A DNA stretch of 58,009 bases from Planctomycetota bacterium (GCA_026981825.1 JALSID010000227.1:1-58009); one strand, 5' to 3'. Counted from the first letter of the stretch, positions 2,877-35,488 are shown. Translations and numbers: made by a program. The notes: a model not told the origin generated them from the letters alone.

Positions 2877-3719
2877 ATGCGAGGTCTGTACGAGCGAATC
2901 CACGAGGCGGTAGAGGACATTCGAGCTCGCTACTCCGCCAGACCGCGCGTTGGAATCATCCTGGGCACGGGGTTGGGGGGCTTCGGCAAGGAAATCGAAG
3001 CACAAACCGTGATACCGTACGAAGAGATCCGGCATTTCCCACGAACCACCGTGATGACCCACGCAGGGCAACTCATCTGCGGCCAGCTTTGCAATGTGCC
3101 GGTTGTGGCCATGGAGGGGCGGTTCCACTACTACGAAGGCTATTCGATGCAGGAGGTAACGTTCCCGGTGCGTGTCATGAAAGCCCTCGGTATCGAAATC
3201 CTCGTGCTCTCCAGCGCGTGCGGCGGAATGAATCCCCACTTTGACAAAGGCGACATCATCATCCTCGAAGACCACATCAACCTGATGCCAGAGAACCCAC
3301 TGCGGGGCTGGAACGACGATCAGCTTGGCCCCCGGTTCCCGGACATGTGTTGGCCGTACGATCGGGAACTTCTGCAGATCGCAGAAGAAGTAGCTCTCCA
3401 CAACCGAATCCGCGCGCACCGCGGCGTCTATGTGGCCGTGCCCGGTCCGAATCTGGAAACGCGGGCCGAGTACCGCTTCCTCCGCGGCATCGGCGCGGAT
3501 GTGGTAGGGATGAGCACGGTTCCGGAGGTCATCGTCGCCGTGCACGCCGGCTTGCGTGTCCTTGCTCTCTCCGTAGTTACGGATCTCTGCTTCCCTGATG
3601 CGCTCCAACCTGCGGATATCGAGGACATCATCCGAACGGCGAACGAGGCGGAACCGAAACTGCGCTGCATCGTGCGGGGGGTGTTAGAACGGATCCGGGA
3701 GTCCCTCTCCCCCGCGTGA
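2877..3719 (+). CDS. punA: Purine-nucleoside phosphorylase (trimeric PNP family)
   Basis: GIILGTGLG, EGRFHYYEGY, GPNLETRAE and GADVVGMSTVPEV motifs. Confidence 0.95.
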   Translation: MRGLYERIHEAVEDIRARYSARPRVGIILGTGLGGFGKEIEAQTVIPYEEIRHFPRTTVMTHAGQLICGQLCNVPVVAMEGRFHYYEGYSMQEVTFPVRVMKALGIEILVLSSACGGMNPHFDKGDIIILEDHINLMPENPLRGWNDDQLGPRFPDMCWPYDRELLQIAEEVALHNRIRAHRGVYVAVPGPNLETRAEYRFLRGIGADVVGMSTVPEVIVAVHAGLRVLALSVVTDLCFPDALQPADIEDIIRTANEAEPKLRCIVRGVLERIRESLSPA

Positions 3720-3805: not shown

Positions 3806-6307
3806 TTACTGATCCGCCACATACGCGTGGCCGGAGCGCAGGGCGTTGCACAGCGCCTCGAGAATCCGCCGAGCCGCGTGCTTGTCGGGTATCGCGATCG
3901 GTGCGGCCAGGTCCGGATCGACATGCATCCCGATTCGACGGCCGACCCCCACGCAACTCGGGCAGCCCTCTTCACAGGGGCAGTCCTTGACCAGATCGCG
4001 CGCGAGGCGGAATAGATCGGCCAGCCGGGCATACGCCTTTTCGCAGTACCCGAGCCCGCCGGGGTAGCGGTCGTACAGGAAGATGCTGGGGGCGCCCAGG
4101 TTCGAGGAGTCCAGCGTACCTCCGATATCGTGTGGATCGCTCATAGCAAGCAGGGGCATCACCTGAAGAAACAGGTTCAGCATGCCCGCAAGCGCTTCAG
4201 AAGGATGGTGGTTCGGCTGACACGCCGAGCGGAGGAGATCGGCCGAAGGCGTCAACCAGAGTCCCGTAGTGCTAAGGGTGCGCTCGGGCAGATTCACCGG
4301 TCCCAGCCCCAGGTTTTCGTGCGTCTTGAACCGCAACTTCTTGAAAGCAACCGTGCGCCAGGTGACGTCAAGATCACCGAACCCGACCCGCACCATCTGT
4401 TCGGTCGCCCCTGTGTTCGCGGCCCTGGGCAGGTTAAACGCTTCTCGCACAATCGTTCGAAACATATCCGACTCTGCCGGCACATCGGAGCGAGTCGGCT
4501 CCAGGGCTTCCTCTAGCCGGATCTCACGCTGCCTTTCTTCCCGCGTGATCTTCACCCGCGTTTCCACAATGGCCTGGGTGTAGTAGCCAGTCTCACGCCG
4601 CTCGACATAGGCGATCCGTTGTTGGAGGTCATAGTCACGAACGATGTAGGTGTCGCCATCATGGAGGTAGACAGCTTGTGGGTAGACGAGTTGGTCGGCA
4701 CTCAGCTCGTCGACGGTCGCGATGGTCTCGGTGGTCCCATCATCGTGGCGCACAGCGATTGTCACCGTGTTGTCGCTCATATTGCGCAAGTTGATCCTGG
4801 CCGCCGGTGAGGTCCCGCCAGTGGCTCTGTACCGCTTGCCGTCCGAAAAAAGGAGGCGCTCTTGAACCATTGCCTGAGCCAACGGAGCGAAGCGTTCGCC
4901 GAAGAGGGCAGAATCCTCGGCCGGCGAAAGGGGCAACTCGAAGGCAGCACACAGCATGTGGCGGGCAAGGACGTGCGGATTGGACGGATCCGCTACGGCA
5001 TGTTCCGGTGACCGCCCGAAGAAGTAGTCCGGGTGGCGGACCAAGAACTGGTCGATTGGATCGTCGCGAGCGATCAAGACCGCCAGGCTGTCCCGGTTCG
5101 AGCGACCGGCTCGGCCAGCCTGTTGCCACGTGCTGGCAATTGTCCCGGGGTACCCGACGAGGATCGCGACATCCATACTCCCCACGTCGATGCCCAACTC
5201 CAGCGCGTTCGTACTAATCACCGCGCGAAGACGTCCGTTGAACAGGTCCCGTTCGATCTGCCGACGTTCCAGCGGCAAGTATCCGCCTCGATAAGCCCTC
5301 ACCGCTTTGGCCAGCTCGGGTACCCTCCTGGCGAGCACGTCCCTCACTTCTCGGTACAGCAACTCGACGCCCGTGCGGGACAGAGCGAAGGCGATCACCT
5401 GGGCGCCGTGGGCAACCAGACTAGCAATAATCGCCGTCGCGTCCCTGCGCGGGCTACGTCGCCCCCCTCGGTCCACCGGAATCTCTGGGGGGTTCCAGAA
5501 GCAGAACCACTTTCGGCCACGAGGGGAACCATCGTCATCGATCACCGTGAACCGCTCGCCCGTCAGTTGCTCCGCCAGCTCGGCCGGGTTGCCAATCGTG
5601 GCGCTCGTAGCAAGAAACTGGGGGCTGGAACCGTAGTGGGCACAAATCCGCTTCAGACGACGGAGCACACACGCGACATTTGCCCCGAACACCCCCCGGT
5701 ACGTGTGGAGTTCATCCAGCACCACAAACCGAAGCGTCTCGAAGAAGCGCGCCCACTTGGAGTGGTGCGGGAGAATCGCCCGGTGAAGCATGTCCGGGTT
5801 GGACAAAACGAGGTTTCCTTCCGAACGCAGCCGCCTCCGTTCGGGAACCGGTGTATCACCGTCGTAGATCCCGCTACGCACGCATGCGTCCAGACGGGGA
5901 ACGGATCGGACGAGGTCTAGAAGGTTCCCGTGCTGGTCCTGGCAGAGGGCCTTGGTGGGGAACAGATAGAGGGCCGATCCCGTGCCCTGCTCCTGAAGGA
6001 GTCGCTCCAATACCGGCAAGTTGTAGCAGAGGCTCTTACCGCTGGCGGTACCCGTGACCACGACCACATTCTTCCCCTCTCTGGCTGCAGAGACGGCCTC
6101 CGCCTGATGCACGTAAAGCTGCCGGATACCGATGCGCTCCAGGCCACGCACAAGCGGTTCGGGAAGGGGGTCGGATAGGCAACCGTATCGAGCCTCGCGC
6201 GGCGGGATCTCCTGGATCCACACGAGGCACTGTCTGGACTCCCTGGCACTCTGCAGAACGTCCACCCACCGTTCGCGCGGTCCGTCGGCCCAGTGCATTG
6301 TCTCCAT
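3806..6307 (-). CDS. SF2 DEAD/DEAH helicase with C-terminal DUF1998 zinc-binding domain (YprA/MrfA/SftH-like)
   Basis: TGTASGKS (Walker A), DELH (motif II), LELGIDVG, QQAGRAGR; C-terminal CPCEEGCPSC; start uncertain (6307 or 6298). Confidence 0.9.
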   Translation of the reverse strand: METMHWADGPRERWVDVLQSARESRQCLVWIQEIPPREARYGCLSDPLPEPLVRGLERIGIRQLYVHQAEAVSAAREGKNVVVVTGTASGKSLCYNLPVLERLLQEQGTGSALYLFPTKALCQDQHGNLLDLVRSVPRLDACVRSGIYDGDTPVPERRRLRSEGNLVLSNPDMLHRAILPHHSKWARFFETLRFVVLDELHTYRGVFGANVACVLRRLKRICAHYGSSPQFLATSATIGNPAELAEQLTGERFTVIDDDGSPRGRKWFCFWNPPEIPVDRGGRRSPRRDATAIIASLVAHGAQVIAFALSRTGVELLYREVRDVLARRVPELAKAVRAYRGGYLPLERRQIERDLFNGRLRAVISTNALELGIDVGSMDVAILVGYPGTIASTWQQAGRAGRSNRDSLAVLIARDDPIDQFLVRHPDYFFGRSPEHAVADPSNPHVLARHMLCAAFELPLSPAEDSALFGERFAPLAQAMVQERLLFSDGKRYRATGGTSPAARINLRNMSDNTVTIAVRHDDGTTETIATVDELSADQLVYPQAVYLHDGDTYIVRDYDLQQRIAYVERRETGYYTQAIVETRVKITREERQREIRLEEALEPTRSDVPAESDMFRTIVREAFNLPRAANTGATEQMVRVGFGDLDVTWRTVAFKKLRFKTHENLGLGPVNLPERTLSTTGLWLTPSADLLRSACQPNHHPSEALAGMLNLFLQVMPLLAMSDPHDIGGTLDSSNLGAPSIFLYDRYPGGLGYCEKAYARLADLFRLARDLVKDCPCEEGCPSCVGVGRRIGMHVDPDLAAPIAIPDKHAARRILEALCNALRSGHAYVADQ

Positions 6308-30951: not shown

Positions 30952-31377
30952 TTACTGGTCCTGCCCGCCTTCCTCGGGCTTCTCCTCTTTTTTCTCTTCT
31001 TTTGACTCGGGAGCTGCTTCCCCCTCAGCCTTGGGTTGCTCACCGCCCTCAGCCTTGGGCTGCTCGCCACCTTCGGCCTTGGGTTGTTCGCCACCTTCGG
31101 CCTTGGGTTGTTCGCCACCTTCGGCCTTGGGTTGTTCGCCGCCTTCGGTAGCTGCGGCGGGCTGTGCTTCCGATTGACCTCCGGCCTGTTCAGCAGCCGG
31201 TTGCTGCTCCTGCTGCCCAGCCGACTCGCCTTCAGCCGCCTGAGGCTGCTGCTCTGTCGCGGGGGTCTGTTCGCCGGCCGGCCCGGTCGTAGTCCCGGTC
31301 TCGGTTCCACCGCCACACCCCAGACCCAAGAGGGCCAGACTGAGTCCGGCTAGTCCTGCAATAAGAAATCGCTTCAT
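30952..31377 (-). CDS. Acidic low-complexity putative lipoprotein with (KAEGGEQP)-type repeats
   Basis: MKRFLIAGLAGLSLALLGLGC signal and lipobox; GGAGGT RBS; E/Q/A/P/G-rich body. Confidence 0.75.
   Translation of the reverse strand: MKRFLIAGLAGLSLALLGLGCGGGTETGTTTGPAGEQTPATEQQPQAAEGESAGQQEQQPAAEQAGGQSEAQPAAATEGGEQPKAEGGEQPKAEGGEQPKAEGGEQPKAEGGEQPKAEGEAAPESKEEKKEEKPEEGGQDQ
31029..31148. repeat. Coding tandem repeat, five 24-bp units
   Basis: Units of CCTTGGGYTGYTCRCCRCCYTCRG abut without spacers; two units are identical. Confidence 0.95.
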
Positions 31378-31620: not shown

Positions 31621-33345
31621 CTACCGCAGGCCAAAACGGTCGAGCAGACTGTACAGCTTGGCCCGGGTGATCCGCAACCGACGGGCCGCTTCGGACTTGT
31701 TGCCACCGGTCGCCGCCAACGTCGTCTCGATCTGGTGGCGCTGCAGCTCTTCGTGGCTGAGCAAACTGAGCGGCACGGCCCGCCCCATGGTCTTCCCAAG
31801 AAGCCGGAGGTCAGCGGCTTCGATGGTTGCACCTCGACACCGCAGGACTGCAGCTTCGATCATGGCCCGCAATTCCCGCACGTTTCCAGGCCAGTGGTAG
31901 GCAAGGAGCTTAGCCATAGCTGCAGCGGAGAAGGTGAGGTCCGGTTTGCCGTAGCGCTGACCGATCTCCTGAGCGAACCGGCGGGCAAGCAAGGCGATAT
32001 CATCACCCCGCTCCCGCAATGGAGGTAGCTCCACCGTGAGAACACTCAGCCGAAAAAACAGGTCCTCTCGGAACCGCTGGCGGCGGACCTGAGCGACCAG
32101 ATTGCGGTTCGTCGCTGCCAGGATGCGTGCGTCTGTGTGCAGCAGTTCCTCGCCCCCCACTCGCGTGAACGTGCCGGTTTCGAGCACGCGGAGAAGTCGA
32201 CACTGGGCGGCCGGAGACATTTCAGCGATCTCGTCCAGGAACAGGGTACCGGCCCTGCTCCGCTCGAAAACTCCACGATGCGTCGCAATGGCTCCCGTAA
32301 ATGCCCCCTTCTCATGTCCGAACAACTCACTCTCCAGGAGCGATTCACTCAACGCGCCGCAGTTCACCGAAACGAACGGGTTCGCGGACCGCGGGCTTAG
32401 CTCGTGAATCGCCTGGGCCACCAGCTCCTTGCCCGTGCCCGTTTCCCCCGTGATGAGCACCGGACACAGGGACTGGGCGGCGAGCCGTATAAACTGGCGG
32501 ACGGGATCGAGAGCAGCACCGCCGATGAGCTTCGCCAACGGGTCTTCGGCCCCCTGTCTGAACAACCGGGTGCTCGCCAGAAGCTTGTCGATCCGGTTAG
32601 CGACAGCGCGGAGCCGGTTGGTTACCGCCTGACTCATCGCTCTTCGACCACGTCGTTCGATGTACAGAAGGATCGCACTGCGCGGCCGTTTGACCACGGT
32701 AACGGACCGCTCTTCCCCGGTCGGAAGGACAATCCGCCCCCTGGCCAAACCGCTGCGGCTGTCTGTCACAGCCCGTAGGATCCCCAGGGCCTGCTCTCCA
32801 GGTCGCCAGTTCGGATCCGGAAACGCCACCACAACGCTCGGATCCCCCCTATGGCCAGCGCCGCCGAGGACAACGGCAGCACAATCGAGCTCCAATTCGT
32901 ACGTGAGCTGCGCGAGGTACTCGATGAGATCCGTGTCCCTAATCTGGCTCTGGCCAACGCCGTCGGCTGCACTCCCGATCGCACGGTGGGCGGTCAGGCG
33001 CCAGGTAGTGGCGGTGCTGTCCAGCCGACAGTTTCGCCCCCCTCTACCGTCGGATAACGCCACCAGCTCCACCTCTCCAACCCGAAAGCTTGTACCGATG
33101 CGGATGACGGTCTCCTCCACCCGCACTCCCCCACACCAGGTACCGTTGGAACTGTTCAGATCACGAACACGTACCCGACGCGGGGCGAAAAGTTCGATTT
33201 CACAGTGCTGGCGCGACACGGATGGATGGCAAAGGACGATGTCCGCCTGAGAGGACCGGCCGATGATCTGGGGCACCCGGAGCTCAAGATCTGCGAGGGG
33301 GCGTCTACCCGTAAGAGTTGAATACAACGCGACCCGACCGCTCAT
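31621..33345 (-). CDS. FHA-domain sigma54-dependent enhancer-binding protein (FHA - AAA+ - Fis HTH)
   Basis: IIGRSS..VSRQHC..DLNSSNGT (FHA); GETGTGKE and ESELFGHEKGAFTGA; WPGNVREL; GNKSEAARRLRI; GAGGAGG RBS before ATG 33345. Confidence 0.93.
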   Translation of the reverse strand: MSGRVALYSTLTGRRPLADLELRVPQIIGRSSQADIVLCHPSVSRQHCEIELFAPRRVRVRDLNSSNGTWCGGVRVEETVIRIGTSFRVGEVELVALSDGRGGRNCRLDSTATTWRLTAHRAIGSAADGVGQSQIRDTDLIEYLAQLTYELELDCAAVVLGGAGHRGDPSVVVAFPDPNWRPGEQALGILRAVTDSRSGLARGRIVLPTGEERSVTVVKRPRSAILLYIERRGRRAMSQAVTNRLRAVANRIDKLLASTRLFRQGAEDPLAKLIGGAALDPVRQFIRLAAQSLCPVLITGETGTGKELVAQAIHELSPRSANPFVSVNCGALSESLLESELFGHEKGAFTGAIATHRGVFERSRAGTLFLDEIAEMSPAAQCRLLRVLETGTFTRVGGEELLHTDARILAATNRNLVAQVRRQRFREDLFFRLSVLTVELPPLRERGDDIALLARRFAQEIGQRYGKPDLTFSAAAMAKLLAYHWPGNVRELRAMIEAAVLRCRGATIEAADLRLLGKTMGRAVPLSLLSHEELQRHQIETTLAATGGNKSEAARRLRITRAKLYSLLDRFGLR

Positions 33346-33672
33346 GACGGCCTCCTCGTTGCGTACGACCGACATCGCGTCGGGTCTGCATTATTTTCTA
33401 CCCCTGTTGATCGAGCAGGTCAATCCTTGCATCCAAGCACCTGCGCGCCCAAGGAAACCGTTTCCCCTTGATGAAGCCGCGTGGGCTCCTTCGGTTCGTT
33501 TTTTCGCGTTCCCCCCAAGCCCCCATACGGTCGAAGCGCCAGGACGGGTGACAACAGCGCTGTATTTCCGGCGCCAAGTTCCCCGCCGCACCATCGCCGG
33601 CAAGGAAGCCAAGGACACATAAGCCATTGAAAGAAAGCCAGTTGCGCGGAACACTGTCGCGCCGTCGGCTTC

Positions 33673-33688
33673 TGGCACGGAATGTGCT
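33673..33688 (+). promoter_or_regulatory. Sigma54 (-24/-12) promoter
   Basis: TGGCACGGAATGTGCT versus consensus TGGCACGNNNNTTGCW: one mismatch, exact GG-N10-GC spacing; divergent from the sigma54 activator gene. Confidence 0.7.
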
Positions 33689-33699
33689 TGTATCGCCAG

Positions 33700-34020
33700 G
33701 CGAGCACGGCTGGAGGGGATGGGCAAAGCCAGATGGACGTTGGAAGCACTCGCCTCGGTGAAGCCCATCCCCTTTTCTGGAAAAGACGCGTAAGGGGATC
33801 CTCCGGTTCTTGTGACCACCGAGGGGGATGCAGCGGATCCGCCCCACAGAAAGGAACGGCAGCCGGGGGCGTAAGCGATGTCTCCGTTCGTGCGCGGGAG
33901 CGATCGCACCGGCTGCCGTTCTTTCTCAGTATAGCGGAAGCCGGCTGCGGGGTTCAGGGATGCCCTAAGCTACACGACGCCGGTGCGCATTGCCGCCATA
34001 CGGCGGAATAACCGCTTTTT
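33700..34020 (+). ncRNA. Candidate structured small RNA downstream of the sigma54 promoter
   Basis: Inverted repeats AGGGGATGGGC/GCCCATCCCCT and an 18-bp stem with one bulge (33848-33866 with 33909-33926); ends at a hairpin plus T5; no credible long ORF. Confidence 0.4.
34003..34020 (+). terminator. Possible weak intrinsic terminator
   Basis: GCGG-AATAA-CCGC-TTTTT, overlapping an alternative CCGCC-ATAC-GGCGG hairpin. Confidence 0.4.
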
Positions 34021-34521
34021 ACCGCCGCGATGGGCCAGTGTCGAGCTACCGCGTTGCTTCGGGTGACGGCGAGGAACTTTCCTGGGAGGGCCGGACAATC
34101 GGAGGGTGTCTCCTGTGGCATTTGAGCCCCCTCATTCCCCCATTGCCCTCGAACCACCCCTGCAAGCGGTCGGCAGCGGCTGGGGCACTCACCGGGACGC
34201 CACCTCCAGGGGCGGTCAGGCCGGTACGGAATCGGACGAACCGTGGCCGATTGCGAAGTGCTCTCCGGCAAGGCCCCCCGCCGGCATGCCAAGGGGGCTG
34301 GTACCGCTTCGAACCGGCTCAACAGCGCGGCGGTGGTTCGTATCGTCTGTCCGCCGCGGAACAGGCAGACTCAGACTTCCCGGCCTGGCGGCTGCAACCC
34401 GAGCCGTACCGGCAAGATCGTTGCAGTATCCCACGCGTAAGAAAGGCGCCGGACCGGCCGTACCGCTAGAATAGGGAACGGTGAAGCCGTGCCACAGCAC
34501 TACTCGGAGAGAAACGGGCCG

Positions 34522-34857
34522 ATGGACGCGCCGCAAGCCGTAAGGGCTCGGCAACAGGAGCGGTACCTGGAGATCGATTGGGGGGAGGGACACGTTTCGG
34601 TCTATCCCTACGGGTACCTTCGAGAACACTGCGAATGTGCTGTGTGTCGCGACGAGTGGACCGGCGAGCGACGGGGTAGCGGGGCCGTTACAGGCCAGGA
34701 TCTGACCATCACAAGCGTGGAACTCGTGGGCAACTACGCTATCCGCATCCGATGGAGCGATGGGCATGACACCGGCCTGTACACGTGGGAGCACCTGCGT
34801 TCCCTGTGCCGGTGCACTCGGTGCGCGCCTATCGGGAAGTCGGATGAGACCGAATGA
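34522..34857 (+). CDS. DUF971 / GBBH-like N-terminal domain protein
   Basis: LREHCECAVC, VGNYAIRIRWSDGHDTGLYTWEHL; GGAGAG RBS. Confidence 0.9.
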   Translation: MDAPQAVRARQQERYLEIDWGEGHVSVYPYGYLREHCECAVCRDEWTGERRGSGAVTGQDLTITSVELVGNYAIRIRWSDGHDTGLYTWEHLRSLCRCTRCAPIGKSDETE

Positions 34858-34960
34858 GGTTCCGGAGCGAAACCTCGAACTAACGGAAGCAAGACGAAGA
34901 ACAGAAGAATCCGAGAAGTAGGGAATACTCGACGAGGGCGGTGCATCCGTACTACGGGGG

Positions 34961-35488
34961 GTGGAGGTGCCTCGTTCGGGCAAGTTCATCGAGCAGCTTG
35001 TAGACCGGCACTATGAGGCCGTGTATCGGTTTGCATACCGGCTGACGGGGAACGTGCAGGATGCGGCGGAGCTGACGCAAGAGGCGTTTTGTGTGGCCCA
35101 GGAACGGCTGCGGCAGCTTCGCGACCCGAGCAGGGCCCGCGCATGGCTGTACAAGATCGCAAGGAATCTCTATCTCCAGAACCAACGCCGCCTGCAGCAG
35201 ATCCCCATGGGTGACGGGGACCTCCAACTCGCTGCTCCGCCACCACAGCACATAAGTGCGGAAGAGGTGGATGAAGAGCAGTTGCAGCGTGCGTTGAACC
35301 AATTGCCTGAAGAGTTCCGGACGCCGCTGGTTCTCTACTACTTCGGCGAACACTCGTACCGCGAGATCGCCGATATCCTCGGCATTCCGATTGGGACGGT
35401 AATGAGCCGCATCGCTCGGGCAAAGGAGAAACTGCGGGTTCTCCTCGGCCTTGGGGTCGACTCCCTCAGTGGCCCCTCGGCAACATGA
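34961..35488 (+). CDS. ECF RNA polymerase sigma factor
   Basis: VYRFAYRLTG..DAAELTQEAF, AWLYKIARN, ALNQLPEEFR..SYREIADILGIPIGTVMSRIARA. Confidence 0.93.
   Translation: MEVPRSGKFIEQLVDRHYEAVYRFAYRLTGNVQDAAELTQEAFCVAQERLRQLRDPSRARAWLYKIARNLYLQNQRRLQQIPMGDGDLQLAAPPPQHISAEEVDEEQLQRALNQLPEEFRTPLVLYYFGEHSYREIADILGIPIGTVMSRIARAKEKLRVLLGLGVDSLSGPSAT

What the first reader, a model, noticed from the sequence alone, without database searches (positions are those of the whole stretch)
33673..34020. Candidate sigma54-driven, GGA-rich structured small RNA (CsrB/Rsm-like sponge?)
The sigma54 promoter points into about 820 nt with no credible gene. The first ~320 nt hold two long stems, end at a hairpin plus T5, and contain 13 GGA triplets by my count (roughly 6 expected at about 65% GC, a rough estimate), several as ANGGA. 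Length and GGA density recall CsrA-sequestering sRNAs. A kinase-FHA-sigma54-sRNA-CsrA circuit is not something I know to be described in planctomycetes. An alternative product is a 24-aa peptide (MGKARWTLEALASVKPIPFSGKDA, 33719-33793), but its RBS spacing is poor.
Basis: partly seen in the sequence, partly recalled or inferred. Interest (0 to 1): 0.68.

Follow-up and report, generated by a model that had tools for sequence, protein, structure and literature searches.

The report
Sigma-54 promoter feeding a REP-capped RNA
Next to a phospho-threonine-sensing activator gene, an uncultured planctomycete has a good sigma-54 promoter that probably makes a roughly 235-base non-coding RNA ending in a hairpin descended from a repeated palindromic element, and nothing supports the idea that it soaks up CsrA.

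Summary
The sequence features are real. TGGCACGgaatGTGCT (33673-33688) is a well-spaced -24/-12 promoter. No gene follows for about 800 nt. There are two long stems and 13 GGA triplets.

The CsrB/Rsm-like reading fails. The GGA excess is marginal (8.3±2.0 expected, p≈0.02) and only 2-3 GGAs are predicted unpaired. The one syntenic relative (G001) has only 5 GGAs in the equivalent stretch.

G001 conserves three things:
- the promoter;
- an orthologous FHA-type sigma-54 activator nearby;
- one 77-nt hairpin (33849-33925), with 6 compensatory pairs across three genomes.

That hairpin is a decayed, single-copy relative of a REP-like palindromic repeat. The repeat has about 95 copies in another planctomycete, and in one genome two copies flank a Y1 transposase gene.

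Above-random folding is confined to 33660-33939. The DUF971-ECF sigma operon downstream occurs in other organisms without activator, promoter or hairpin, and has a conserved -10-like box of its own.

Best reading (0.42): an activator-dependent sigma-54 transcript of about 235 nt, terminated or protected by the REP-derived hairpin, target unknown. Main rival (0.28): a long leader of the DUF971 operon.

No expression data could be obtained. In passing I found a much cleaner five-copy sigma-54 sRNA family elsewhere in this genome.

The parts
31621..33375 (-). FHA-domain sigma-54 activator (bEBP): FHA + AAA+ Sigma54_activat + HTH_8. It is transcribed divergently from the promoter.
   Evidence: Pfam. 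The ortholog in G001 has the same domains, with 40% identity in FHA and 51% in AAA+.
33554..33563 (.). Perfect palindrome ACAGCGCTGT about 110 bp upstream of the -24 element. It is a candidate activator-binding site and is unverified.
Evidence: Read. No equivalent was established in G001.
33673..33688 (+). Sigma-54 promoter TGGCACGgaatGTGCT, with -24 GG at 33674-5 and -12 GC at 33686-7. The inferred start is near 33699.
   Evidence: G001 has cGGCACGcaaaaTGCg in the same register, preceded by the same GTCGGC. rpoN is present.
33715..33772 (+). 5' stem-loop: 10-bp GGGGAUGGGC/GCCCAUCCCC enclosing 38 nt.
   Evidence: z=-3.0. G001 has an analogous 11-bp GCCGUGGGGGC/GCCCCCACGGC stem right after its promoter, with no sequence similarity.
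33794..33830 (+). Middle hairpin containing CCUCC. It is not conserved.
   Evidence: No counterpart in the alignment with G001.
33849..33925 (+). Conserved 77-nt hairpin. It has a 16-bp outer stem (33851-33866/33909-33924), an 8-nt 5' internal loop GGGCGUAA, an inner helix GCGAU/AUCGC (33875-33879/33903-33907), and a 23-nt apical loop with CGCGGGA. A U-rich tail UUCUUUCUC follows. The 5' arm 33862-33878 matches the REP-like repeat arm.
   Evidence: 100% pairing, 6 compensatory pairs. REP relation.
33992..34020 (+). It is weak and not conserved.
34467..34472 (+). TAGAAT, a -10-like box 50 nt before the DUF971 ATG. It is the likely own promoter of the downstream operon (inference).
   Evidence: TAGAAT/TAGAGT/TAGAAT/TAGGAT lies 23-54 nt before the ATG in the window, G001, L047 and L050.
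34489..35488 (+). DUF971 (GBBH-like_N; likely start ATG 34522) followed by an ECF sigma factor. This operon is downstream of the candidate RNA.
   Evidence: Pfam. The database protein starts at 34522. The operon is conserved in L047, L048, L050 and L052.

Best explanation
The FHA-type enhancer-binding protein encoded next door activates the sigma-54 promoter at 33673-33688. This is inferred from adjacency and co-occurrence. Transcription starts near 33699.

The product is a non-coding RNA whose structured part is 33699 to about 33935. It has a GC-rich 5' stem-loop, a variable middle hairpin, and a long 3' hairpin with a U-rich tail.

That 3' hairpin is a decayed, single-copy descendant of a REP-like palindromic repeat family of Planctomycetota. 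It has been kept as a hairpin since the two genera split. It most likely acts as terminator and/or 3'-end protector, giving a discrete sRNA of about 235 nt (about 195 nt in G001). Some read-through is possible.

Its target is unknown. It is not a multi-site CsrA sponge.

What is shown:
- the promoter motif and its conservation;
- linkage to the activator;
- absence of coding signal;
- hairpin covariation;
- the relationship to the REP-like repeat.

What is inferred:
- the transcription itself;
- the 3' end;
- trans-acting function.
For: Promoter
- A site of this quality occurs 40 times in 10.5 Mb of both strands. That gives about 0.01 expected in this 1.1-kb spacer.
- The -12 variant TGTGCT recurs at other gene-proximal and sRNA-proximal sigma-54 sites of this genome.
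- G001 has GGCACG-N4-aTGC in the same register and place.
- rpoN is present.

Linkage
- FHA-bEBP orthologs sit beside the promoter in both genomes.
- Two relatives whose DUF971-ECF operon lacks the bEBP within the sequence recovered (L048, L050) also lack the promoter and hairpin. L047 lacks promoter and hairpin too, but its contig is too short to show whether a bEBP lies upstream.

Non-coding
- There is no codon-position GC signal and no Pfam hit.
- Six-frame comparison with G001 finds only the hairpin, in all frames.

Structure
- Better-than-shuffle folding occurs only at 33660-33779 and 33820-33939, and at the equivalent two places in G001. The remaining 500 nt folds like or worse than shuffles.
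- The hairpin shows 100% pairing and 6 compensatory pairs in 3 sequences; 1 of 500 shuffles reaches this.

Terminator role
- The homologous hairpin in G003 sits 40 nt after a gene's stop and is followed by T8.
- A related hairpin follows groES in G189, and another follows a stop codon in G770.
- Genuine terminators in this window are also long GC stems with short U tails.

Precedent in this organism
- A five-copy family of about 85-nt RNAs, of which four copies have a sigma-54 promoter identified here, exists in the same genome.

Separate promoter for DUF971
- A conserved TAGAAT-like box lies upstream of DUF971.
Against:
- Only one syntenic relative exists. The closest DUF971 relative (L047, 72% identity) lacks the module within 1.2 kb.
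- Nothing between promoter and hairpin is conserved in sequence, so no seed region can be named.
- The U tail after the hairpin (UUCUUUCUC; UUUACCAUUCUC in G001) is poorer than the T7-T9 tails of the clean sigma-54 sRNAs in this genome. Termination may therefore be partial.
- The hairpin is nearly strand-symmetric. Only one G·U per sequence favours the + strand, and G003's copy works as a terminator on the opposite strand.
- The distance from promoter to the DUF971 ATG is similar in both genomes (about 820 and 785 nt), which a stand-alone sRNA does not explain.
Confidence: 0.42

Rival explanations
1. Long regulatory leader. The sigma-54 promoter is the activator-dependent promoter of the DUF971-ECF sigma-anti-sigma operon. 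The roughly 800 nt are its 5' UTR, and the REP-derived hairpin acts as an attenuator, a processing site or a mere passenger.
For: - There is no other gene for the promoter to serve.
- The order promoter-hairpin-DUF971-ECF is kept in both genomes, with similar spacing of about 820 and 785 nt.
- The hairpin's U tail is weak, so read-through is plausible.
- Putting an ECF sigma under a kinase/FHA-bEBP input would make regulatory sense (inference).
Against: - Other sigma-54 sites in this genome lie mostly 20-130 nt from their genes.
- The DUF971 operon exists without promoter or hairpin elsewhere, and without the bEBP where enough flanking sequence is available (L048, L050).
- It has a conserved -10-like box of its own.
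- The 500 nt after the hairpin are neither conserved nor structured.
Confidence: 0.28
2. No dedicated RNA. The hairpin is only a relic REP-like element or insulating terminator, possibly acting on the minus strand ahead of the bEBP or lipoprotein gene. The sigma-54 site is weak, cryptic or serves something not recognised.
For: - The 5' arm is 15/17 identical to a repeat with about 95 copies in G229, and two copies flank a Y1 transposase gene in G189.
- G003's copy is non-syntenic and terminates a minus-strand gene.
- The minus-strand tails (UUCCUUUCU; CCUUUUCC in G001) are as good as the plus-strand ones.
Against: - Promoter conservation at the same register and place in G001, next to the same activator, is hard to explain by chance.
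- No minus-strand gene or conserved ORF lies upstream of the hairpin that it could terminate.
- The stem is kept by compensatory changes although G001 has no Y1 transposase hit.
Confidence: 0.2
3. CsrB/Rsm-like sponge. A roughly 320-nt RNA presents many GGA motifs and titrates CsrA.
For: - There are 13 GGA in 321 nt, in the top 2% for this contig.
- The genome has two csrA genes and no FliW, so the CsrA antagonist is unknown.
- One GGA (CGCGGGA) lies in the conserved apical loop of the hairpin and is predicted unpaired in G001, though paired in the window.
Against: - Density is 1 per 25 nt. From memory, CsrB and RsmZ have about 1 per 16-17 nt.
- Only 3 of the 13 are ANGGA, and only 2-3 are predicted unpaired.
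- G001 has 3 GGA in its 197-nt RNA and 5 in 327 nt, which is about chance.
- The 3' third of the proposed RNA is neither conserved nor structured.
- There is no Rfam hit to any Csr/Rsm family, even at E≤10.
Confidence: 0.04
4. Small-protein gene: the 24-aa ORF at 33719-33793, or another short ORF, is the product.
For: The ORF exists, and GGAGG lies just upstream.
Against: - The spacing between GGAGG and the ATG is 2 nt, and both lie inside stem 1.
- There is no counterpart in G001.
- There is no coding periodicity.
Confidence: 0.02

Closest known systems
Pxr sRNA next to the sigma-54 activator gene nla19 in Myxococcus (PMC5568312); also Qrr sRNAs activated by LuxO at sigma-54 promoters in Vibrio (PMC10162802)
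   Same: A non-coding RNA gene with its own -24/-12 promoter lies directly beside the gene of a sigma-54 enhancer-binding protein. The predicted fold has several stem-loops and ends in a 3' hairpin. In G001 the order activator → promoter → RNA is like nla19 → pxr.
   Different: - The activator here has an FHA (phospho-threonine-reading) input instead of a receiver domain.
- The RNA is longer (about 235 nt against about 100).
- It has no conserved seed, and no expression or target is known.
- There is no sequence or Rfam relationship.
REP / BIME elements and their RAYT (Y1, IS200/IS605-like) transposases, as known from enterobacteria and pseudomonads (established knowledge, from memory)
   Same: - The 5' arm GCCGGGGGCGTAAGCGA is 15/17 identical to the arm of a palindromic repeat present in tens to about 100 copies in other Planctomycetota.
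- In G189 two such hairpins flank a Y1 transposase ORF.
- Like REPs, copies sit after stop codons and look like terminators or 3' protectors.
   Different: - In this genome and in G003 the element is single-copy. G001 has a copy by the covariance model, but the arm pattern does not match it.
- Its 3' arm lacks 8 nt, leaving an asymmetric internal loop.
- It sits downstream of a sigma-54 promoter rather than after a protein gene.
- No RAYT is adjacent.
CsrB/CsrC/RsmX/Y/Z CsrA-sequestering RNAs
   Same: Length of a few hundred nt, several stem-loops, and more GGA than average in this one genome.
   Different: GGA motifs are mostly paired, rarely ANGGA, and not conserved in the ortholog. The promoter is sigma-54/bEBP-type rather than GacA/UvrY-type. 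No covariance-model match.
The five-copy family of about 85-nt RNAs in the same genome, four copies with a sigma-54 promoter identified here (contigs C151 ×2, C182, C158, C43)
   Same: Same organism, same promoter type (one copy even has the same TGTGCT -12 box), and no ORF.
   Different: Those are short and multi-copy, about 83-95% identical to the first copy, and the two copies read in full end in canonical T7-T9 terminators. The present candidate is single-copy and longer, with a REP-derived 3' hairpin and a weak U tail.

Membership tests
Sigma-54-dependent promoter | GG and GC dinucleotides in the -24/-12 register (TGGCAC-N5-TTGCW) | tested here: met
   TGGCACGgaatGTGCT matches with one mismatch (G for T at -14). 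The same variant occurs at other sigma-54 sites of this genome.
Sigma-54-dependent promoter | rpoN and a cognate enhancer-binding protein in the genome | tested here: met
   Sigma54_DBD hit of 203 bits. An FHA-AAA+-HTH_8 bEBP is adjacent.
Sigma-54-dependent promoter | Transcription start 12 nt downstream that depends on rpoN and the bEBP | not testable with these tools
CsrB/Rsm-type CsrA sponge | Many (about 7-22) GGA/ANGGA motifs, mostly in hairpin loops or single-stranded linkers | tested here: not met
   There are 13 GGA, but only 3 are ANGGA and 2-3 are predicted unpaired.
CsrB/Rsm-type CsrA sponge | GGA array conserved in orthologs | tested here: not met
   G001 has 3 GGA in 197 nt and 5 in 327 nt.
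CsrB/Rsm-type CsrA sponge | CsrA present in the genome | tested here: met
   Two CsrA hits of 92 and 83 bits. FliW is absent.
CsrB/Rsm-type CsrA sponge | Match to an Rfam Csr/Rsm covariance model | tested here: not met
   No hit at gathering score or at E≤10.
CsrB/Rsm-type CsrA sponge | High-affinity binding of several CsrA dimers | not testable with these tools
   Needs a gel-shift or pull-down experiment.
REP-like palindromic repeat (RAYT-associated) | Arm sequence matching the family consensus GCCGGAAGCGTAAGCGA | tested here: met
   33862-33878 is GCCGGGGGCGTAAGCGA, 15/17 identical. The covariance model of the window hairpin finds G229 and G189 copies.
REP-like palindromic repeat (RAYT-associated) | Complete inverted copy of the arm (TCGCTTACGCTTCCGGC) | tested here: not met
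   The 3' arm is ATCGC-A-CCGGC, with 8 nt missing. G001 has the same truncation and G003 a similar one.
REP-like palindromic repeat (RAYT-associated) | Many copies per genome | tested here: not met
   There is one true copy in G000 and one pattern match in G003. G001's copy is found by the covariance model but not by the pattern. Counts of arms are 191 in G229 and 29 in G189.
REP-like palindromic repeat (RAYT-associated) | Y1 transposase flanked by the repeats somewhere in the lineage | tested here: met
   In G189 contig C125, the order is hairpin, a 170-aa Y1_Tnp ORF, hairpin. G000 has only one weak, unlinked Y1_Tnp hit.
Intrinsic terminator | GC-rich hairpin immediately followed by a U run | tested here: inconclusive
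   The 16-bp stem is followed by UUCUUUCUC, partly inside the stem. The scan did not call it because the loop exceeds 8 nt. The G003 homolog has T8 on the other strand.

The most novel reading that the evidence does not exclude
A Ser/Thr-kinase → FHA-bEBP → sigma-54 → small-RNA circuit in Planctomycetota. Its RNA gene would have been assembled by capturing a REP-like palindrome as its terminator and stabiliser. The retained asymmetric loop (GGGCGUAA, CGCGGGA), identical across two families, would serve as a protein- or RNA-binding module.
Probability: 0.25. Interest if true: 0.55.

Novelty: new member of a known kind. Interest (0 to 1): 0.3.

Why it matters
Regulatory RNAs of Planctomycetota are almost unexplored. 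I know of no sigma-54-dependent sRNA controlled by an FHA-input activator. If the transcript is confirmed, it would link phospho-threonine signalling to riboregulation in this phylum.

It would also show a REP-type repeat recruited as the 3' end of an RNA gene.

As it stands the case is indirect: one syntenic relative, no expression data and no target. The specific CsrA-sponge claim, which gave the finding its score, does not hold.

The by-products may be more useful. One is a five-copy sigma-54 sRNA family. The other is a phylum-wide REP/RAYT-like repeat.

Tried and rejected
1. Rfam at gathering score and at E≤10 gave only chance miRNA-like hits on the hairpin.
2. A pattern scan of 185,000 genomes found only G001 plus chance hits, none of which the covariance model accepted.
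3. A pattern scan of metagenome contigs gave one hit, inside what looks like a coding region with no flanking stem.
4. I fetched contigs of the closest DUF971 proteins (72-62% identity). Only the G001-type locus carries the hairpin.
5. A search for orthologs of the activator's FHA/linker half in 5.8 billion proteins found none except the protein itself.
6. Covariance-model searches of 400 class-level and 400 phylum-level genomes found G003 and members of the REP-like family, with no further syntenic loci.
7. Target hunting by complementarity to the conserved loops gave only chance-level hits. One striking site in a 5' UTR on contig C153 (CTTACGCCC + GCGATCGCTCCCGCG) has the two halves in the wrong order for a duplex. 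Its loose version is expected 0.4 times by chance, and G001 has no equivalent.
8. Six-frame comparison and codon-position GC found no hidden gene.
9. MAFFT alignment of the DUF971 upstream regions was uninformative, so I read the -10-like box by eye.

Full report
**Locus**

The finding lies in a 1.1-kb spacer (33376-34488). On the left, on the minus strand, is a 584-aa protein with FHA, Sigma54_activat, AAA_lid and HTH_8 domains. This is an FHA-input sigma-54 enhancer-binding protein (bEBP). On the right, on the plus strand, are a DUF971/GBBH-like_N gene, an ECF sigma factor and a DUF3379-like putative anti-sigma.

No phase of the spacer shows the low second-position GC that marks the flanking genes. 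None of its ORFs hits Pfam.

**Observation**

TGGCACGGAATGTGCT at 33673-33688 has GG and GC in the canonical register.

- Genome-wide, TGGCACG-N4-NTGC occurs 40 times against about 21 expected from composition. One in this spacer by chance has a probability of about 0.01.
- Many of the genomic sites are obviously real, such as TTGGCACG-N4-TTGCW a few tens of nt before long ORFs. Several use the same TGTGCT -12 box.
- rpoN is present.

The two long stems are real.

The GGA count of 13 is exact, but the excess is marginal. Dinucleotide shuffles give 8.3±2.0, and 2.3% of them reach 13. Windows of 321 nt from the same contig give 6.4±2.6, and 1.7% reach 13. Only three GGAs are ANGGA, and only two or three are predicted mainly unpaired.

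The 'hairpin plus T5' near 34000-34020 is a short stem. The terminator scan did not call it.

**Comparative evidence**

Only one other species of the same family is available (G001, a Planctomycetota MAG, JALXBF010000065). Its locus is syntenic:

- a Gfo/Idh/MocA gene;
- an acidic lipoprotein;
- an FHA-bEBP (40% identity in FHA, 51% in AAA+);
- then DUF971, ECF sigma and anti-sigma.

The bEBP is inverted relative to the window. Even so, a sigma-54 site cGGCACGcaaaaTGCg sits in the same register, preceded by the same GTCGGC, about 785 nt before DUF971.

Alignment of the two spacers shows a single conserved block, window 33849-33925. It hits in all reading frames, so this is nucleotide conservation and not protein conservation.

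The block is a long hairpin: a 16-bp outer stem, an 8-nt 5' internal loop GGGCGUAA, an inner GCGAU/AUCGC helix, and a 23-nt apical loop with CGCGGGA. A covariance model built from the two copies found a third copy in G003, in the same order but a different family (43 bits, E≈1e-7). Over the three sequences every cell pairs and six pairs carry compensatory changes. One of 500 column shuffles reaches this.

**What the hairpin is**

The G003 copy is not syntenic. It lies between queC and a methyltransferase-like gene, 40 nt after the latter's stop, and is followed on that strand by T8. That makes it a textbook terminator.

Weaker model hits in other families shared the arm AGCCGGAAGCGTAAGCGAC and sat after genes such as groES. 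Counting the arm pattern gave the following.

| Genome | Arms found |
|---|---|
| G229 | 191 (about 95 hairpins) |
| G189 | 29 |
| G770 | 11 |
| G758 | 5 |
| G003 | 1 |
| Own genome | 1 true copy |
| G001 | 0 by this pattern (its arm differs at one fixed position; the covariance model finds it) |

Aligned copies show a stereotyped palindrome: ACGA-GCCGGAAGCGTAAGCGA-CGG…CCG-TCGCTTACGCTTCCGGC-TCGT.

In G189 two such hairpins flank a 170-aa ORF that matches Y1_Tnp and has a His-hydrophobic-His motif. This is the arrangement known for REP elements and their RAYT transposases, which I cite from general knowledge.

The window hairpin is therefore a diverged, single-copy member of a REP-like family. 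Its 5' arm matches 15/17, and its 3' arm has lost TTACGCTT, which creates the 'conserved internal loop'. The truncation is shared with G001 and is similar in G003. The loop segment UUCGUGCGCGGGA is identical in the window and G003.

**Extent of the RNA**

Sliding-window folding against shuffles marks only 33660-33779 (z=-3.0) and 33820-33939 (z=-2.8 on plus, -3.8 on minus). The equivalent two places in G001 are also marked. From 33980 to 34450 the z-scores are near zero or positive.

Both genomes thus share the same architecture: promoter, a GC-rich 10-11-bp stem enclosing a variable domain, then the REP-derived hairpin with a pyrimidine/U-rich tail. The lengths are about 235 nt and 195 nt.

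**Independent RNA or leader?**

Three points favour independence.

- The DUF971-ECF operon occurs without promoter or hairpin in three other organisms (L047, L048, L050), and in L048 and L050 no bEBP lies in the recovered sequence. In the two genomes that have the bEBP, the promoter and hairpin are present too.
- A TAGAAT-like box sits 23-54 nt before the DUF971 ATG in four loci.
- This genome demonstrably uses sigma-54 promoters for short ORF-less RNAs. The five-copy family below is the example.

Three points favour a leader.

- The promoter has no other gene to serve.
- The hairpin's U tail is poor compared with the T7-T9 tails of those sRNAs.
- The promoter-to-ATG distance is similar in both genomes.

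I put the stand-alone RNA at 0.42 and the leader at 0.28.

**CsrA sponge**

csrA is present twice and FliW is absent, so an RNA antagonist is not excluded in principle. This RNA does not look like one, however.

- GGA density is modest and mostly paired.
- The ortholog has chance-level GGA: 3 in 197 nt and 5 in 327 nt.
- No Csr/Rsm model matches.

I give it 0.04.

**Strand**

The hairpin is almost symmetric. One G·U pair in the window and one in G001 favour the plus strand. The promoter also points that way, and there is no minus-strand gene upstream that it could terminate. The G003 copy acts on the opposite strand, as expected for a palindromic repeat.

**Closest known systems**

In kind, this resembles bEBP-adjacent sigma-54 sRNA genes such as pxr beside nla19 (PMC5568312) and qrr genes activated by LuxO (PMC10162802). 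It differs in having an FHA input, a longer RNA, a REP-derived 3' end and no known target.

**Limits**

- There is one syntenic relative.
- No target was found. A complementarity search gave only chance-level hits.

**Verdict**

The promoter and its link to the FHA-bEBP are credible. A non-coding transcript of about 235 nt capped by a REP-derived hairpin is the most likely product. The CsrB-like interpretation is not supported. Interest is modest.

Noticed in passing
Own genome, outside the window: contig C151:2585-2690 and 3007-3110 (locus L059, +), C182:16530-16641 (-), C158:8505-8611 (-), C43:30672-30765 (-); G001 C103:5387-5455 and C113:2104-2171: This is a five-copy family of about 85-nt ORF-less RNAs. 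Four copies have a sigma-54 promoter identified here (e.g. TTTGGCACGGGATGTGCTGCT); none was looked for at the C43 copy. The body is GCGGAACCCAGCGACAGCGACCCCGUCGCUCCGGGCCGG…, with a CCCCCUCC loop in the terminator; the two C151 copies, read in full, end in T7-T9. Two copies sit in tandem on C151, and two copies exist in G001. The arrangement resembles the Qrr sRNAs. Rfam gives only a sub-threshold tfoR hit (33 bits against a cut-off of 70). It is a much cleaner sigma-54 sRNA candidate than the finding itself.
   Followed up: partly
G229 (e.g. L060-L071), G189 (L072-L075, L080), G770, G758; window 33862-33878: This is a REP-like palindromic repeat family of Planctomycetota with arm GCCGGAAGCGTAAGCGA. 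It has about 95 hairpins in G229, often with flanks …GACAAAAGT…ACGA/TCGT…ACTTTTGTC…. In G189 contig C125 two copies flank a 170-aa Y1 (RAYT-like) transposase ORF. I did not check whether this family has been described.
   Followed up: partly
Window 34467-34472; L026 ~4346-4351; L047 ~1194-1199; L050 ~784-789: A conserved TAGAAT/TAGAGT/TAGGAT box lies 23-54 nt upstream of the DUF971 start in four organisms. It is a likely -10 element of the DUF971-ECF sigma operon.
   Followed up: no
Own genome C28:2058-2210 and C294:664-819: The genome has two csrA genes but no FliW (94.9% complete), so whatever antagonises CsrA in this planctomycete is unknown.
   Followed up: partly
Window 30952-31377 (-) and L026 2959-3381 (-): A small acidic, Glu/Pro/Lys-rich lipoprotein (MKR…LGCGG signal) accompanies the FHA-bEBP in both genomes. 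The gene pair is rearranged between them, and the bEBP is inverted in G001.
   Followed up: no
Own genome C153:2546-2569 (+): The 5' UTR of a gene starting MRDKRRKRVGLLRLEQLERR… contains CTTACGCCC directly followed by GCGATCGCTCCCGCG. These are complements of the two conserved unpaired segments of the hairpin, but in the wrong order for a simple duplex. I judged it chance, and G001 has no counterpart.
   Followed up: yes
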